Shown: positions 42,197 through 56,022 of the stretch, piece after piece
Position numbering within the stretch: the stretch's first letter is position 1
How the letters are laid out: the number at the start of each line of letters is the position of its first letter
NCBI GenBank assembly: GCA_031550205.1
Contig: JAVBOV010000040.1
Coordinates: 1 to 62,476, forward strand
Length of the DNA: 62,476 nucleotides
DNA from: Alphaproteobacteria bacterium
GTDB lineage: Bacteria > Pseudomonadota > Alphaproteobacteria > RF32 > CAG-239
Direction: 5' to 3'
Translations under genes and position numbers: made by a program
Notes under the pieces: generated by a model
Told to the model about the DNA's origin: nothing
The model's database searches: none
What the model saw: only the letters and a program-made list of their open reading frames with translations

Positions 42197-43735
42197 ATGA
42201 AAAACGCAGGTTTAAAGACTTTTGTTTATAGTTTTGTCTTTTCTCTGTTTGCCGTTTTGACGGCGAACGGCCTTTATTTGCGCAGCACCAAAAACAAGTC
42301 CTATGACATTAAAATCCCTGAAAAAAACATTGCTTTATTCTTAAAAAACGAAGCCCCATCCTCGTTTTCAACAACCCCTATTAAAAAAATATCATTAAGC
42401 GAGCCTTTGGAAGAAAAGCCCGTTGTTTTAGCGGATATTTCCGAGCCTCCGGCTCAGTCTCCTCCCGAAGAAGCTGCAAAAACAAACGCTCCCGTTTTGT
42501 ATGCGCCCGAAGAAGAAATTATAACCCCGAAATTTGCAGAAATAATAACCGGCCCGGCAGTGCATTCCGACTTGCCGGAAAAAGTTGTTTACGAGGGGGA
42601 AATTTTTGATGTGGTTTATGATGAAGAACCAGCACCCGCGGCCGAATTTGACATTGCCAGCGTTAAGAAGGAAGTAATTAAAAAAGAAAGCGAACTGGAA
42701 GCTAAAAAGCCCAAGGAAAGCCTGTTAATTCCGCTGCAAAAAGAATTCGGCGCAGAACAGGCCAATGCCGCTGTGATAAGGGCTTTTGAAGATATTGACA
42801 GCAATAAAGTCGCGGCAAACGGCAACAAAGCCCTGATTAAAACCGTGGCGGCGGAGAAAGAGGTTTCTTCTGAAAAAGAAGAAAAAACCAAAACCACCGC
42901 GCCATGGGAAAATATGAGCGAAAAAAAAGAAGACAACCCCTGGGCAGCCGCCAAAGGAACAAACTTTCCCAAAAATAAAAAAATATTAAATGAAGATTTT
43001 TTTCAAAACGCCGATGCCGATAATATTGCTCAAACCTTGGGAAAAAAGCAGCCGACGAAGGAAAAAGAGGTTTTGCTGGCGGCAGACATCGCCAAGAACA
43101 TTCTTATTCCCATTCCTGAAGAAATTATGAAAGAAGAAAACTTAACCCCGCAGCTTATTTCTTCTCATAAAAAGGACGGCTCCGAAGAATTGTCTCCGGA
43201 GCAAAAAGCGGCCGAAGAAATCGGCGAAGGCATTGAGGAAAACGGAGAAAAGCAGGGAGGGATTTTAAAAAGCATCAGCTCCATGTTTTCAAAAGCACCG
43301 AAAGTTGACGCCGCAGACGGCGGAGAGAAAAAATCGGGTTTTTTTGAACAACTGACCACCAGAAAAAACAAGGCCAAAGAAAAAACCAAAATTCTGCCTA
43401 CGGAGATGCGCTTATCATTTCAGCCCAACCGTGCGGAAATTTCCGGACAAACACTAAAGTGGCTGCAGGCTTTTGCCAACAAAGCCATTGAGGACGACAG
43501 CGTGTTTCTGGAGATTAGAATTGACGGAACAAGCTCTTTTGAATTGCAGCAAAAAAGATTGAACTTGTTACATAATATTTTAACCAATAAGGGTGTAAGC
43601 TACAATAAAATAAACACAATTTTTACAACCAGAGAGCCGAATTCCTTTATTGTAAGAGCTGTCAGAATTAACAAAAAAGACAACGAAGATACGGAACAAA
43701 GAGAACAAAATCCTTATTATTATCAACAATGGTAA
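42197..43735 (+). CDS. Membrane-anchored protein with a possible degenerate OmpA/MotB-like C-terminal domain
   Basis: ATG 42197 follows AAGGGG. N-terminal TM (FVYSFVFSLFAVLTANGLYL). A long E/K/P-rich linker. The C-terminus LSFQPNRAEISGQTLKWLQAFANKA..FLEIRIDGTSSFELQQKRLNLLHNILTNKGVSYNKI follows an OmpA-like pattern, weakly. Confidence 0.3.
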   Translation: MKNAGLKTFVYSFVFSLFAVLTANGLYLRSTKNKSYDIKIPEKNIALFLKNEAPSSFSTTPIKKISLSEPLEEKPVVLADISEPPAQSPPEEAAKTNAPVLYAPEEEIITPKFAEIITGPAVHSDLPEKVVYEGEIFDVVYDEEPAPAAEFDIASVKKEVIKKESELEAKKPKESLLIPLQKEFGAEQANAAVIRAFEDIDSNKVAANGNKALIKTVAAEKEVSSEKEEKTKTTAPWENMSEKKEDNPWAAAKGTNFPKNKKILNEDFFQNADADNIAQTLGKKQPTKEKEVLLAADIAKNILIPIPEEIMKEENLTPQLISSHKKDGSEELSPEQKAAEEIGEGIEENGEKQGGILKSISSMFSKAPKVDAADGGEKKSGFFEQLTTRKNKAKEKTKILPTEMRLSFQPNRAEISGQTLKWLQAFANKAIEDDSVFLEIRIDGTSSFELQQKRLNLLHNILTNKGVSYNKINTIFTTREPNSFIVRAVRINKKDNEDTEQREQNPYYYQQW

Positions 43736-43832
43736 ACTACTAACAAGCAGCATCTGCCGCGCTTGATTATTTGTTTTTCAATATGTATTATAGGAAAAAA
43801 GTATGACTAAATATAGCTTAGGAAACAACGAG

Positions 43833-44504
43833 ATGACCCGCAAATTACGCCTTTGTGCTTGTGCATTATGTTTCTTTCTCAACAGTGCTTGCGCAGGATC
43901 TATTATGGAACCCGGAATAGAGGTTCCTGCCGACCAGCCGTGCGAAGAAACAAACACCCAACCCTCTTCCGTTAAACAGGACAATAAGTTTGTGAACTAC
44001 ACCGACGTGGCCGCCGATTATCGAGAATATGGCGAGAGAGCCCCGCGCGACCAATTGGTTGTTCAGACTGACGCGGGAAGCAATCTTTCCGCGGCCGTAC
44101 CGCCCAGCATTGAAGACGAGGTGGTTGAATATGAAGAGTTTTCTTCCGGCGTCGACGGCAAAACCAAAGATATTACCGTAATTGAAGAAACAACCGGCAG
44201 CGAGGAAAAATCGCAGAGCTATAACGGAGAAGATCCCGTTGAAGACTGGCTGGCCGAAGAAGGACGCACCTTAAAAGACTTGCTGACGGAATGGTCAGAC
44301 CGTTCCGGATGGCGCTTGATTTGGAATTCCAACCGCAATTATACTTTAACCGCCGGCGCCATGTTCAGAGGCCGTTTTGCCGACGTTAGCTCCGCTTTAA
44401 TCAGGGCTTTCGGCAGAGCCAGACCCGCTCCGATCGGAACTTTTTATAAGGGAAACCGCGTCTTAGTTGTTGAGACTTTGGAGGACGAGAATGCATATGA
44501 ATAA
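43833..44504 (+). CDS. TcpQ/PilL-like lipoprotein of type IVb pilus systems
   Basis: MTRKLRLCACALCFFLNSAC lipobox. The C-terminal block WLAEEGRTLKDLLTEWSDRSGWRLIWNSNRNYTLTAGAMFRGRFADVSSALIRAF..YKGNRVLVVE matches my recollection of the TcpQ-domain pattern. Directly precedes the secretin gene. Confidence 0.55.
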   Translation: MTRKLRLCACALCFFLNSACAGSIMEPGIEVPADQPCEETNTQPSSVKQDNKFVNYTDVAADYREYGERAPRDQLVVQTDAGSNLSAAVPPSIEDEVVEYEEFSSGVDGKTKDITVIEETTGSEEKSQSYNGEDPVEDWLAEEGRTLKDLLTEWSDRSGWRLIWNSNRNYTLTAGAMFRGRFADVSSALIRAFGRARPAPIGTFYKGNRVLVVETLEDENAYE

Positions 44505-54372: not shown

Positions 54373-55011
54373 GTTGATTTTTCTCTGTTGAACGAAGTGA
54401 GCAGAGATAAAAAAATCAACATTAGACCTGACTCGAAATTGTTTTTTTATGTCATTTCGACGACTTGACCGAAGGGAATGAAGGAGAAATCTTATGCGTC
54501 GAGGTAGATTTCTCCTCCACTTACTACGTTCGCGTCGTCGAAATGACAACAGTTCTTAATTTTGAGACAGGTCTAATGTGCCGTGATAATCCAAGATGAA
54601 TTTGCAATATTATTCCGGTTGGATTGCCGCGCTTCCTCCTTCGCTCTTACAGAGCTACGGCGGACAGGTCGCTCACAATGACATTGATAGGTTATGTGGA
54701 TTAGTTTTTTTGTTTTTTTAGCAATCTGTTAAGAGATGGGTGGTATGGTGGGGGATAAGGATTTGTTGTTTGACCTGGATCCTCGGGTCAAGCCCGAGGA
54801 TGACAAATAAGGATAATTATTTTGGCTGGATTGCTTCGGCAAGCCTCGCAATGACGAAGAAAAAAAGGGCTCGCAATGATAATGTGGATGGGTGGCTTTG
54901 TCACCCCCACCCTAACCCTCCCCCATCAAGGGTGAGGGGAAAGTAAGGGGCTATCCTCCCCCATCAAGGGTGAGGGGAAAGAGTAGATCCTGAAACAAGT
55001 TCAGGATGACG
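54373..55011. repeat. Cluster of at least six different palindromic or short dispersed repeat elements
   Basis: GTTGATTTTTCTCTG..CAGAGATAAAAAAATCAAC (54373..54420). GTCATTTCGACGAC...GTCGTCGAAATGAC with an inner GGAGAAATCT/AGATTTCTCC pair (54451..54547). GGATTGCCGCGC...GCTCACAATGAC (54621..54682). TGACCTGGATCCTCGGGTCAAGCCCGAGGATGACA (54771..54805). GGATTGCTTCGGCAAGCCTCGCAATGAC (54827..54864). Tandem CCTCCCCCATCAAGGGTGAGGGGAAAG x2 (54918..54973). CCTGAAACAAGTTCAGGATGAC (54989..55010). Confidence 0.7.
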
Positions 55012-55056
55012 TGCGGATCGCGCAATGGCGGTTTTAGAGAGAAAGGACTAGAAGAT

Positions 55057-56022
55057 ATGGTTACGCTTAATGCAGTTAGTTTTTCAGATATTTATATTAC
55101 GCCGGAAAAGGTGGCTTATATTCCTGACGGACGCACCGAAAACGGGTTGGAGGTTTTTAAAGCCGACGATTTTGAGCAGTTTTATAATCTCTTGGAGCGC
55201 ACCTGGGACGGCAAAAACCCCAGCTATTCCGTGTTATATGAAAAATATTTTTACCGCGTTGAACGTTCAATGTCTCTTTACGGCGTACAATATTGCGCCC
55301 GCAGAATGCCGCAAAAAACTCCTTCTTTCAACACCCTTGGTTTTGACTTTGAACTGCAAAGATATTTAATGACGCTCAGCAATGCTTCCGGACTTATTCT
55401 GTGGTCGGGCCCGACCGGCGCCGGTAAAACAACCTCTATTTCCTCGCTTTTGAAAGAATATTTGACCATGGAAGGCGGATTTGCCTACACCATTGAAGAC
55501 CCCTCTGAAATGCCTTTAGACGGCGTTTATAAGTCTGCTGCAGGCGGAATCGGGCTATGCAAGCAAACCCTGCCGCCCAAAGGCAACTGGGGAGAAGGTT
55601 TGAAATCGGCCCTGCGCTCAAAACCGCGCTTTATTCTGGTGGGCGAGATTAGAACGCCAGACACCGCCAGCGAAGTGCTTAGAGCCGCAACATCAGGCCA
55701 CTTGGTACTTTCAACCATTCACGCCAACAATGTGACTGACGCAATTAACTCAGTGGTGAAATATGCCGCATCAACCTCAATGAGCGAAGAGCTTGCTTAT
55801 GATTTATTTTCTCGCGGAATGCTTGGCGTTTTGCACCAAACCTTGAACGGAACCAAAAGCAAAAAGCCGTCAATTTCCTTCCTGTTTGCAAATCCGGACA
55901 CGACCAAAGGCGACCAGGTGCGCGGCATTATTAAAACCGGAAAACTCAACCTGGCAACCCCGATTGAAACTCAAGCGAATCGTTTGGCACTTGGAAAGAG
56001 CATGTTCCCGGATTTAAGCTAG
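55057..56022 (+). CDS. PilT/BfpF-like secretion-superfamily ATPase (putative retraction ATPase)
   Basis: Walker A GPTGAGKTT, Asp box TIEDPSEMPL, Walker B RFILVGEIRTPD, His box GHLVLSTIHANN. About 320 aa, lacking the long N-domain of the assembly ATPase. The listed start 55006 lies inside repeat DNA; ATG 55057 is preferred. Confidence 0.75.
   Translation: MVTLNAVSFSDIYITPEKVAYIPDGRTENGLEVFKADDFEQFYNLLERTWDGKNPSYSVLYEKYFYRVERSMSLYGVQYCARRMPQKTPSFNTLGFDFELQRYLMTLSNASGLILWSGPTGAGKTTSISSLLKEYLTMEGGFAYTIEDPSEMPLDGVYKSAAGGIGLCKQTLPPKGNWGEGLKSALRSKPRFILVGEIRTPDTASEVLRAATSGHLVLSTIHANNVTDAINSVVKYAASTSMSEELAYDLFSRGMLGVLHQTLNGTKSKKPSISFLFANPDTTKGDQVRGIIKTGKLNLATPIETQANRLALGKSMFPDLS

What the first reader, a model, noticed from the sequence alone, without database searches (positions are those of the whole stretch)
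42197..56022. R64-thin-pilus/Bfp-like type IVb pilus cluster physically coupled to a P-type (VirB) T4SS
The gene order is TcpQ/PilL-like lipoprotein, secretin lipoprotein, a 426-aa accessory protein, a PilP-like protein, a GspE-type ATPase, a GspF-type platform and pilins. This parallels pilL-pilN-pilO-pilP-pilQ-pilR-pilS of IncI plasmid R64, where the thin pilus assists an I-type (Dot/Icm-like) conjugation system. Here the partner is a VirB/rvh-type system instead. A PilT/BfpF-like second ATPase (55057..56022) suggests the pilus retracts. I see no prepilin peptidase, no PilV-type shufflon and no Rci recombinase in the window.
Basis: partly seen in the sequence, partly recalled or inferred. 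Interest (0 to 1): 0.6.

Follow-up and report, generated by a model that had tools for sequence, protein, structure and literature searches.

The report
Bfp-like retractile pilus beside T4SS
An uncultured gut alphaproteobacterium carries, fixed in its chromosome and transcribed in the gut, a complete bundle-forming-pilus-like type IVb pilus machine next to a VirB-type secretion system; the pairing is conserved across most of the clade but has plasmid precedents and is not obligatory.

Summary
Window 42197-56022 encodes a type IVb pilus (T4bP) system: an OmpA-like anchored protein, a TcpQ-domain lipoprotein, a PilN-family lipoprotein secretin, PilO, a PilP-like protein, a BfpD-like ATPase, a GspF platform, three pilin-fold genes (one uncleavable) and a PilT/BfpF-like ATPase. 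It is closer to Bfp-like clusters than to R64. It has no prepilin peptidase, PilV/shufflon, PilM or lytic transglycosylase.

Of 62 informative species genomes, 55 keep the cluster within 10 kb of virB4. It appears in four different arrangements and is always beside a T4SS gene.

Three results weaken the "new coupling" reading:
- IncI2 plasmid R721 (typed MPF_T) already interleaves pil and virB genes.
- The two operons carry separate promoter-region motifs that move independently.
- Some rumen lineages keep the T4SS where the whole pilus cluster is absent from its usual site.

A metatranscriptome from the source study holds exact-match RNA contigs for both systems. Pilin 53660-54283 has the highest exact-match contig depth in the window (94; machine genes 3-7).

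Best reading: an expressed, retractile contact or adhesion pilus that is accessory to the T4SS. This is a new variant of a known kind.

The parts
42145..42173 (+). Promoter-like element of the pilus operon (TTGCCA-17 nt-TATCTA), followed by RBS AAGGGG at 42180-42185
   Evidence: The block GCCAAGAG lies at a fixed -44 to -52 nt from the first pilus gene in about 35 of 55 related loci. It also occurs in L098/L099, where the neighbour is virB6 rather than virB2. Its promoter function is inferred.
42197..43735 (+). First pilus-operon gene: N-terminal membrane anchor, long E/K-rich variable linker, conserved C-terminal OmpA/MotB/Pal-like (peptidoglycan-binding fold) domain
   Evidence: No Pfam or NCBIfam hit. 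The C-terminal 110 aa are conserved in 51 distinct orthologues. AlphaFold2 gives pLDDT 81.7. Foldseek top hits are the OprF C-domain 5u1h (E 3.7e-6), Pal and MotB.
43803..44504 (+). TcpQ-domain outer-membrane lipoprotein (PilL/TcpQ/BfpG-position partner of the secretin)
   Evidence: PF10671 58.4 bits. No PilL TIGR03748 hit. 40% identical to the Bosea TcpQ protein and 29% to R64 PilL over the domain. The lipobox Cys is canonical in orthologues.
44497..46110 (+). PilN/BfpB-type lipoprotein secretin
   Evidence: TIGR02520 278 bits (cut-off 287.65), MshL 106, GspD 36.8. Conserved (A/I/L)(A/V)SC lipobox. Exact-match RNA contigs at 44509-45504.
46132..47412 (+). PilO/BfpC-family bitopic inner-membrane protein
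   Evidence: PF06864 51.4 bits. 25% identical to Bosea PilO2, E 9e-31.
47387..48775 (+). PilP-like exported protein with coiled coil and a C-terminal PilP-like domain
   Evidence: TIGR03021 26.7 bits, below the cut-off. It occupies the position between PilO and the ATPase in all relatives.
48795..50504 (+). BfpD-like pilus extension ATPase
   Evidence: PDB best hit BfpD 8dze, 316 bits, E 3e-93. Walker A, Asp box, Walker B and His box are intact, as are the two CxxC zinc motifs. 78-84% identical across the clade.
50515..51639 (+). GspF/BfpE/PilR-type platform protein
   Evidence: PF00482, two stretches, 92 bits. 36% identical to Bosea, 33% to E. coli, 25% to R64 PilR.
51646..52215 (+). Pilin-fold paralogue without a class III signal (Q at -1, D at +5); probably uncleaved and membrane-anchored
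   Evidence: Bundlin 22.1 bits (cut-off 22.3). Alignment A2. It always follows the platform gene in relatives. Its N-terminal codons hold a genome-specific 7-bp tandem repeat that also occurs at 42070-42105.
52212..52856 (+). Canonical type IVb prepilin (G|RSMIEML), probably minor or silent
   Evidence: Bundlin 33.9 bits, PilS 23 bits. 42% identical to the pilin at 53660. No exact RNA contig.
53660..54283 (+). Major type IVb prepilin (leader of about 14 aa, G|RSMIEML, mature about 193 aa, conserved Cys pair)
   Evidence: PilS 36 bits, Bundlin 25.3, N_methyl. Best PDB hit is bundlin 1zwt, E 5.9e-5. RNA contig 53683-54222 has depth 94.3, the highest exact-match contig in the window.
55057..56022 (+). 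PilT/BfpF-like second (retraction-type) ATPase
   Evidence: Best PDB hits PilT 74.5 bits and DotB 66.5. 33-34% identical over the full length to the second ATPase of the Bosea and E. coli Bfp-like clusters. Catalytic motifs are intact and there is no CxxC pair. 71-82% identical in relatives. RNA contig at 55544-55709.
41979..41996 (.). Conserved element CTGTAACAAAAAATTCAC on the virB2 side of the divergent region
   Evidence: Present in 41-48 of 55 loci, depending on how much of the motif is counted. It stays with virB2 in L047, L061, L062 and L064, where the pilus is not divergent, and is absent from L098/L099. It lies inside RNA contig 41625-42006.
16089..41873 (-). Neighbouring VirB-type T4SS operon (VirB2 paralogues, VirB3, VirB4, VirB8 x2, VirB9, giant VirB10, VirB11); VirB6-like genes lie at 2-8001 (+)
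   Evidence: Pfam hits. RNA contigs on virB2 genes at 38930-42006, depth 7-23.

Best explanation
The cluster encodes a working, retractile, bundle-forming-pilus-like type IVb pilus.

Proposed mechanism (component roles are inferred from family membership and established knowledge of Bfp, Tcp and R64 systems):
- A lipoprotein secretin and its TcpQ-domain partner form the outer-membrane pore.
- The OmpA-like first-gene product ties the machine to the cell wall.
- PilO and the PilP-like protein link the pore to the GspF platform.
- The BfpD-like ATPase polymerises the pilin encoded at 53660-54283 after an unlinked prepilin peptidase cuts it at G|RSMIEML.
- The PilT/BfpF-like ATPase retracts the fibre.

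The system is chromosomal and inherited within a clade of uncultured gut and rumen Alphaproteobacteria. There it has stayed beside the VirB-type T4SS through several rearrangements.

I read it as an accessory cell-contact or adhesion organelle. It would bring the bacterium against a partner cell or surface so that the short-range T4SS can engage, as IncI1, IncI2 and PAPI-1 thin pili stabilise mating pairs. It is helpful but dispensable for the T4SS.

Shown here: gene identities, intact motifs, conserved linkage, transcription in the gut. Inferred: fibre assembly, retraction, and any cooperation with the T4SS.
For: Identity as a Bfp-like T4bP:
- The profile and PDB matches are given under the observation check and the parts.
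- ATPase motifs are intact; lipoboxes are present.

Linkage to the T4SS:
- 55 of 62 informative species genomes have the cluster within 10 kb of virB4.
- Four arrangements occur: divergent from virB2; co-directional before virB2 (L047); directly before virB3 (L042, L052, L066); divergent from a virB6 paralogue (L098, L099).
- A sister lineage with only 60% ATPase identity also has virB2 divergent.
- In every context reached from pilus genes where the upstream flank was readable, a T4SS gene was adjacent.
- The downstream neighbours differ in at least four ways.

Expression:
- Exact-match RNA contigs in a metatranscriptome of the source study cover virB2 genes (depth 7-23), the secretin, the platform, the PilT-like gene (depth 3-7) and pilin 53660-54283 (depth 94).

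Precedent:
- R721 (IncI2, MPF_T) interleaves pil and virB genes.
- T4bP is essential for IncI2 transfer in broth and in the gut (PMC9045228, PMC7508951).
- The PAPI-1 T4bP initiates ICE transfer (PMC5297154).
Against: - No prepilin peptidase was found in the window or in about 100 related loci. The genome could not be searched.
- The two operons have different conserved promoter-region motifs that travel separately, so no shared operator was seen.
- L062 and L064 keep rpsA-virB2...virB4, but the whole pilus cluster is missing from the place it occupies in L101/L103.
- Five further loci also lack it within 10 kb.
- L101/L103 keep only the uncleavable pilin paralogue.
- The PilT-like gene is missing beside the pilins in L006/7, L093/94 and L098.
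- No relaxase or coupling protein is in the window, so the mating-pair analogy lacks a known substrate.
- Contig depth is a poor measure of expression, and only one RNA run holds the organism.
Confidence: 0.5

Rival explanations
1. The pilus is an independent colonisation or aggregation pilus, as Bfp and Tcp are. It mediates attachment to gut surfaces or autoaggregation and has no functional tie to the T4SS. The adjacency is a legacy of joint acquisition, or of slow gene-order change in small genomes.
For: - The promoter motifs are separate and independently portable.
- The T4SS persists where the pilus cluster is absent.
- The closest characterised relatives by sequence (BfpD, bundlin) belong to an adhesion pilus, not a mating pilus.
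- There is no PilV-type recipient-recognition adhesin.
Against: - The link to T4SS genes survives at least four different rearrangements, including a move next to virB6, while the other flank of the cluster changed at least four times.
- The cluster was never seen away from T4SS genes in the contexts sampled.
Confidence: 0.35
2. The machine acts mainly as an exporter or importer rather than as an adhesive fibre. It could secrete a soluble factor, as Tcp secretes TcpF, or take up DNA together with a ComB-like, relaxase-less T4SS.
For: - T4bP systems are known to secrete proteins (established knowledge of Tcp and Cof).
- The T4SS shows no relaxase or coupling protein in the window.
- Retraction ATPases drive DNA uptake in other type IV pili.
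Against: - No candidate secreted substrate gene is conserved in the cluster.
- There are no competence genes nearby.
- The very high pilin transcript level fits a fibre.
Confidence: 0.07
3. The cluster is a decaying remnant that no longer builds pili in this genome.
For: - No prepilin peptidase was found.
- A GIY-YIG gene and piles of palindromic repeats are inserted among the pilin genes.
- One pilin paralogue has lost its signal.
- Relatives have lost pilins or the whole cluster.
Against: - All reading frames are intact, with intact catalytic motifs.
- The motor proteins are 71-84% identical across many species.
- The genes are transcribed, the pilin most strongly.
Confidence: 0.06

Closest known systems
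Bundle-forming pilus (Bfp) system of enteropathogenic E. coli, and unnamed Bfp-like clusters on E. coli IncFIA plasmids and Bosea sp. RAC05 plasmid pBSY19_1
   Same: - Gene order TcpQ-domain protein, lipoprotein secretin, PilO2, small protein, extension ATPase, platform.
- A second PilT-like ATPase is present.
- The pilins are bundlin-family.
- BfpD is the best solved match of the ATPase.
   Different: - Identities are only 33-39%.
- The second ATPase lies after the pilins, not after the platform.
- There is no prepilin peptidase, no lytic transglycosylase and no set of small minor pilins.
- It has an extra OmpA-like first gene and an uncleavable pilin paralogue.
- It is chromosomal, in Alphaproteobacteria, and beside a T4SS.
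IncI2 plasmids (R721, TP114): T4bP interleaved with an MPF_T (VirB-type) T4SS
   Same: - A T4bP cluster is physically joined to virB2-virB11 genes.
- The pilus is an accessory that stabilises cell pairs, is needed in liquid and in the gut, and is dispensable on solid medium (PMC9045228, PMC7508951).
   Different: - R721 parts are distant: VirB4 24%, PilQ 28%.
- R721 has PilM, PilV with a shufflon and an adjacent site-specific integrase, a peptidase, a lytic transglycosylase, a relaxase and a coupling protein, and no retraction ATPase.
- The window has none of the former and does have a retraction-type ATPase.
IncI1 plasmid R64 thin pilus (pilI-pilV)
   Same: - Order PilL(TcpQ domain)-PilN-PilO-PilP-PilQ-PilR-PilS.
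- The secretin scores highest against the PilN-family model.
   Different: - The partner is MPF_I.
- The ATPase gives only 161 bits and 30% identity, and there is no blastp hit to R64 PilO.
- PilM, PilT (transglycosylase), PilU, PilV and the shufflon are absent here. Rci was not searched for directly; no integrase Pfam hit was seen.
PAPI-1 / ICE-type conjugative T4bP of Pseudomonas aeruginosa
   Same: A T4bP is paired with a non-I-type T4SS and initiates contact for transfer (PMC5297154).
   Different: It sits on a mobile integrative element with a PilV adhesin and DNA-transfer genes. It was not compared at the sequence level here.

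Membership tests
Type IVb pilus systems (generic) | Pilin with class III signal (Gly at -1, Glu at +5), leader longer than in type IVa, mature length about 190 aa, Bundlin/PilS family | tested here: met
   Pilins 52212-52856 and 53660-54283 have G|RSMIEML, a leader of about 14 to 23 aa and a mature length of 191-193 aa. Bundlin and PilS score above their cut-offs.
Type IVb pilus systems (generic) | PilN/BfpB/TcpC-type lipoprotein secretin with a TcpQ-domain partner | tested here: met
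   TIGR02520 gives 278 bits, 10 bits under its equivalog cut-off but far above all other secretin models. TcpQ PF10671 gives 58.4 bits. Lipoboxes are present.
Type IVb pilus systems (generic) | PilO/BfpC-family protein | tested here: met
   PF06864, 51.4 bits against a cut-off of 26.7.
Type IVb pilus systems (generic) | Extension ATPase that groups with T4bP ATPases rather than GspE, PilB or TadA | tested here: met
   BfpD 316 bits, GspE 175, PilF 168, PilB 143. The TadA-type model gives 41.7 bits against a cut-off of 373. In the tree it lies among T4bP ATPases.
Type IVb pilus systems (generic) | Dedicated prepilin peptidase (A24 family) | tested here: not met
   No tblastn hit with three A24 peptidases in the window or in about 100 related loci, and no Pfam hit.
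Bfp-type subgroup | Second, PilT/BfpF-like retraction ATPase in the cluster | tested here: met
   55057-56022: PilT is the best PDB hit. It is 33-34% identical over the full length to the second ATPase of Bfp-like clusters. Motifs are intact. Retraction itself was not tested.
Bfp-type subgroup | BfpP peptidase, BfpH transglycosylase, BfpI/J/K minor pilins | tested here: not met
   No peptidase and no transglycosylase. Only one extra canonical pilin and one uncleavable paralogue are present.
R64/IncI thin pilus | PilV tip adhesin with shufflon and Rci recombinase | tested here: not met
   PilV queries hit no window or clade locus. They hit only the outgroup locus L009. No integrase Pfam hit was found in the window; Rci itself was not used as a query.
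R64/IncI thin pilus | PilL equivalog, PilM, PilT transglycosylase, PilU | tested here: not met
   No TIGR03748 hit; only the TcpQ domain matches. PilM, the transglycosylase and PilU are absent.
Type II secretion system | GspD secretin, GspE equivalog, GspC/L/M and pseudopilins G-K | tested here: not met
   GspD 36.8 bits against a cut-off of 351. GspE 228 bits against a cut-off of 630. No GspC/L/M or pseudopilin families were hit.
Tad/Flp pilus | Flp pilin, CpaB/RcpC, TadZ, TadA-type ATPase | tested here: not met
   None of these families was hit.
Conjugative T4SS plus mating-pair-stabilising T4bP on a mobile element | Relaxase, coupling protein, and plasmid or ICE hallmarks (replication or integration genes, tRNA site) | tested here: not met
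   No such Pfam hits in the window and no tRNA. The flanks are housekeeping genes and differ between lineages. Elements elsewhere in the genome were not testable.

The most novel reading that the evidence does not exclude
The retractile Bfp-like pilus and the relaxase-less, repeat-expanded VirB-type T4SS form one lineage-wide "grapple-and-engage" contact apparatus of a very common group of uncultured gut Alphaproteobacteria. The pilus reels in a partner (host or bacterial cell) for the T4SS. It would be a chromosomal, non-conjugative counterpart of plasmid mating-pair stabilisation, secondarily lost in some rumen lineages.
Probability: 0.3. Interest if true: 0.75.

Novelty: new variant of a known kind. 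Interest (0 to 1): 0.5.

Why it matters
T4bP systems are known as pathogen colonisation pili and as plasmid mating aids. Here one is fixed in the chromosome of a widespread, uncultured commensal clade found in human, chicken, ruminant, rabbit and invertebrate guts. It sits beside a T4SS that shows no DNA-transfer genes in the window, and both are transcribed in the gut.

If the two machines cooperate, a principle known from plasmids (a long retractile pilus that serves a short-range T4SS) would extend to a chromosomal, possibly effector-delivering or adhesive system. It would also point to how these bacteria contact hosts or neighbours.

The natural "deletion series" found here gives ready comparative material: lineages without the pilus, without canonical pilins, or without the PilT-like gene. 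No paper in the held library describes this system.

Tried and rejected
I therefore could not make the genome-wide search for the prepilin peptidase or a whole-genome co-occurrence matrix.
- The exact look-up of the window's ATPase found no record.
- The metagenome scan with the secretin returned only 2 loci, because the protein is too diverged for exact peptide patterns.
- Looking for the pilus in the very assemblies that lack it beside the T4SS failed (L061, L062, L064, L083). I tried via close GspF homologues. It did reveal the virB6-adjacent arrangement and, via the PilT-like gene, the rpsA context that shows the deletion.
- A single shared bidirectional operator is rejected: the two conserved motifs segregate independently.
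- An apparent DNA joint 42099->51674 that would delete the machine genes is rejected. It rests on a 21-nt side and coincides with a 7-bp tandem repeat present at both places.
- T2SS, Tad and type IVa readings are rejected on profile and PDB scores.
- Direct descent from IncI2 is rejected: 24-28% identity.
- I did not fetch the bfp plasmid or the tcp island as yardsticks. I used names and scores from the PDB sequence search instead.
- Accessions AP002527, AP005147, MF521836 and KP347127 are not in the plasmid collection. NC_005014 and NC_002525 are.

Full report
**What is there**

The + strand from 42197 to 56022 carries eleven genes of one type IV filament system. One inserted gene interrupts them.

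Profile searches give:
- a TcpQ-domain protein (43803-44504, PF10671, 58.4 bits);
- a secretin (44497-46110). Its best model by far is the PilN family of type IVb pili: TIGR02520 gives 278 bits against a cut-off of 287.65, MshL 106 bits and GspD 36.8 bits;
- a PilO-family protein (46132-47412, PF06864, 51.4 bits);
- a 462-aa exported coiled-coil protein with a weak C-terminal PilP match (26.7 bits, below the cut-off);
- a T2SSE ATPase (48795-50504);
- a T2SSF platform (50515-51639);
- three pilin-fold genes;
- a second, shorter T2SSE ATPase (55057-56022).

The first gene (42197-43735) has no family hit. Its last 110 residues are strongly conserved in 51 distinct orthologues. They fold with pLDDT 81.7 into an OmpA/MotB/Pal-like domain. 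The Foldseek top hits are the OprF C-domain, Pal and MotB, with E about 1e-5. The protein is therefore a membrane-anchored, probably peptidoglycan-binding component, not the PilL/TcpQ protein.

The TcpQ protein and the secretin both carry a lipobox cysteine. Both ATPases have intact Walker A, Asp-box, Walker B and His-box motifs. Only the long ATPase has the two CxxC motifs typical of extension ATPases.

**Which kind of system**

The extension ATPase's best solved relative is BfpD (316 bits, E 3e-93, nearly full length). It is far ahead of GspE (175), PilF (168) and PilB (143).

The pilin's only significant solved relative is bundlin. The short ATPase matches PilT best, then DotB.

Taken part by part, the proteins are closer to unnamed Bfp-like clusters than to R64. 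The comparators are Bosea plasmid pBSY19_1 and an E. coli IncFIA plasmid.
- ATPase: 39% and 36% identity against 30% for R64 PilQ.
- Platform: 36% and 33% against 25%.
- PilO: hits in both Bfp-like clusters, none in R64.
- Second ATPase: 33-34% over the full length; R64 has none.

In a tree of the 150 best 50%-identity representatives, the clade's ATPases form one group. Its sister is a lineage that also has virB2 next door. The next lineage out is R64-like in content (PilM, Shufflon_N PilV). T2SS, Tad and type IVa readings are excluded.

**What is missing**

The window has no A24 peptidase, PilV, PilM or lytic transglycosylase, and neither do about 100 loci of relatives.

**The pilins**

Two genes encode canonical type IVb prepilins: G|RSMIEML, Glu at +5, leaders of about 14-23 aa, mature length about 192 aa, and a conserved Cys pair.

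The gene right after the platform gene is a pilin-fold paralogue with Gln at -1 and Asp at +5, so it is probably not cleaved. Relatives keep this paralogue at the same spot and carry from zero to two canonical pilin genes.

**The organism and the neighbour**

Homologues come from uncultured gut and rumen Alphaproteobacteria, labelled for example "Proteobacteria bacterium CAG:495", Candidatus Scatocola and "Azospirillum sp. 51_20". The window's own DNA is in an invertebrate gut metagenome.

On the minus strand, directly upstream and divergent, lies a VirB-type T4SS. It has VirB2 paralogues, VirB3, VirB4, two VirB8, VirB9, a giant VirB10 and VirB11. VirB6-like genes lie at 2-8001. I saw no relaxase, coupling protein, integrase or tRNA in the window.

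**How constant is the link**

A scan of species-representative genomes with VirB4 found 191 relatives, and the best 80 were kept. Of the 62 with at least 7 kb of upstream flank:
- 51 have the pilus cluster divergent from the T4SS end, 50 of them with virB2 between (L069 gave no VirB2 hit);
- 4 have it co-directional: before virB2 in L047, and directly before virB3 in L042, L052 and L066;
- 7 have no pilus gene within 10 kb.

On the VirB4 tree the divergent layout is spread over all branches. The exceptions form one rumen-associated subclade plus scattered single cases.

Starting from pilus genes instead, every context with a readable upstream flank had a T4SS gene adjacent. In two cases this is a virB6 paralogue rather than virB2. 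The other flank of the cluster differs in at least four ways: redoxin-VWA-PP2C-kinase; M20 peptidase-racemase; patatin; rpsA-cmk. The T4SS junction is thus much more persistent than the opposite junction.

**Evidence against obligate coupling**

1. The divergent region holds two conserved blocks that travel separately.
   - TTGCCA-17 nt-TATCTA sits at a fixed distance from the first pilus gene, even where the neighbour is virB6.
   - CTGTAACAAAAAATTCAC stays with virB2, even where the pilus is gone.
   - No shared operator is evident.
2. L101/L103 have the order virB4...virB2 | pilus...PilT-like, a 408-aa gene, rpsA, cmk, rsmE, response regulator. L062/L064 have the same housekeeping genes (rpsA 84% identical) followed at once by the virB2 motif and virB2...virB4. 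The whole pilus cluster is cleanly absent there while the T4SS stays. I could not test whether a copy sits elsewhere in those genomes.
3. L101/L103 have lost the canonical pilins, and several lineages lack the PilT-like gene at the locus.

**Expression**

One metatranscriptome of the source study holds exact-match contigs (0 differences) over:
- the virB2 genes (38930-42006, depth 7-23);
- the TcpQ gene and the secretin (44020-45504, depth 4-7);
- the platform gene (5.3);
- the uncleavable paralogue (4);
- the PilT-like gene (3.2);
- pilin 53660-54283 (94.3).

The second canonical pilin and the first gene gave no exact contig. Elsewhere in the window exact-match contigs reach depth 15 at most. 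The one high bin (9130-9666, depth 55) has no exact-match contig among those listed, and a loose end there begins like a repeat-linked sequence also seen at 53387.

The uneven profile, against a flat DNA depth of about 8-10, argues for RNA rather than DNA carry-over. Even so, contig depth is a crude measure and only one run is informative. I conclude that both machines are transcribed in the gut, and that 53660-54283 is the major pilin.

**Precedent**

It is not new.
- R721 (IncI2) is typed MPF_T. It carries pilL-pilM, then virB1-like, virB2, virB3, virB4, virB8-11 and the coupling protein, then pilN-pilV, in one block. PMC11448411 Table 2 types another IncI2 plasmid as MPF_T.
- The IncI2 T4bP is essential for transfer in broth and in the mouse gut (PMC9045228, PMC7508951).
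- PAPI-1 uses a T4bP with an ICE-type T4SS (PMC5297154).
- R721's proteins are only 24-28% identical to the window's, so the pairing here arose separately or very long ago.

**Verdict**

What is new is the setting. The system is chromosomal and clade-wide, has a retraction-type ATPase and an OmpA-like anchor, and lacks the adhesin, peptidase and transglycosylase genes. It sits beside a T4SS that has no DNA-transfer genes in view.

My preferred mechanism is an accessory retractile contact pilus that serves the T4SS (confidence 0.5). An independent adhesion pilus whose adjacency is historical is the main rival (0.35).

I found no paper describing this system in the held library.

Noticed in passing
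window 52991-53290: A stand-alone 99-aa GIY-YIG gene (PF01541, 59.9 bits) sits between the two canonical pilin genes. No homologue was found in any of about 100 related loci, so it looks like a genome-specific selfish insertion.
   Followed up: partly
window 42070-42105 and 51676-51709: A 7-bp tandem repeat (TTTTGGA/TTTTAGA/TTTTTGA ... GATTGCAG) occurs in the virB2-pilus intergenic region and, in frame, in the N-terminal codons (FSILDFRFLIAA) of the uncleavable pilin paralogue. The chance expectation is 0. The repeat coincides with, and probably explains, a spurious DNA joint 42099->51674 in the source run.
   Followed up: partly
window 54283-55057 and 52860-53660: These non-coding stretches are packed with repeat elements. 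The DNA run shows raised depth (37-66) and joints between 52260/53382 and about 54990. A repeat-linked sequence TAATCAGCAATTCATTAAG has depth 281 in DNA and 121 in RNA. In relatives the pilin-to-PilT spacer is only about 100 bp.
   Followed up: partly
window 9130-9666: RNA depth is 55 in an intergenic stretch between the HTH gene and a 549-aa ORF. The same repeat-linked loose end (ATAATCAGCAAT) occurs here. It may be a transcribed dispersed repeat or a small RNA.
   Followed up: no
window 41625-42006: An RNA contig over the first virB2 gene runs to 42006, past the conserved CTGTAACAAAAAATTCAC block (41979-41996). That block may therefore lie in the 5' untranslated leader of the T4SS operon rather than in its promoter.
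   Followed up: partly
L101/L103 (JGI 3300031555, 122-kb contig): This relative keeps the whole pilus machine and the PilT-like gene but only the uncleavable pilin paralogue. An AAA_14/DUF4143 gene is inserted among its virB2 paralogues, and a Cys-rich 408-aa gene follows the PilT-like gene.
   Followed up: partly
L047, L061, L062, L103 versus window 38910-41063: The VirB2-fusion gene next to the pilus cluster varies greatly in size between species (about 570 to 1801 aa), and the number of small virB2 paralogues also varies.
   Followed up: no
window 56045-56683 (-): A TlpA/redoxin-like exported thiol-disulfide protein lies right after the PilT-like gene, here and in L003-L005. All three pilin-fold proteins have a Cys pair. 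A role in pilin disulfide formation is possible but untested, and the gene is absent from that position in other lineages.
   Followed up: no
L040 (JAISVX010000001.1): A 392-kb contig with this alphaproteobacterial T4SS-pilus block is labelled "Lactobacillaceae bacterium" in its record. This is probably a mislabelled or mis-binned MAG.
   Followed up: no
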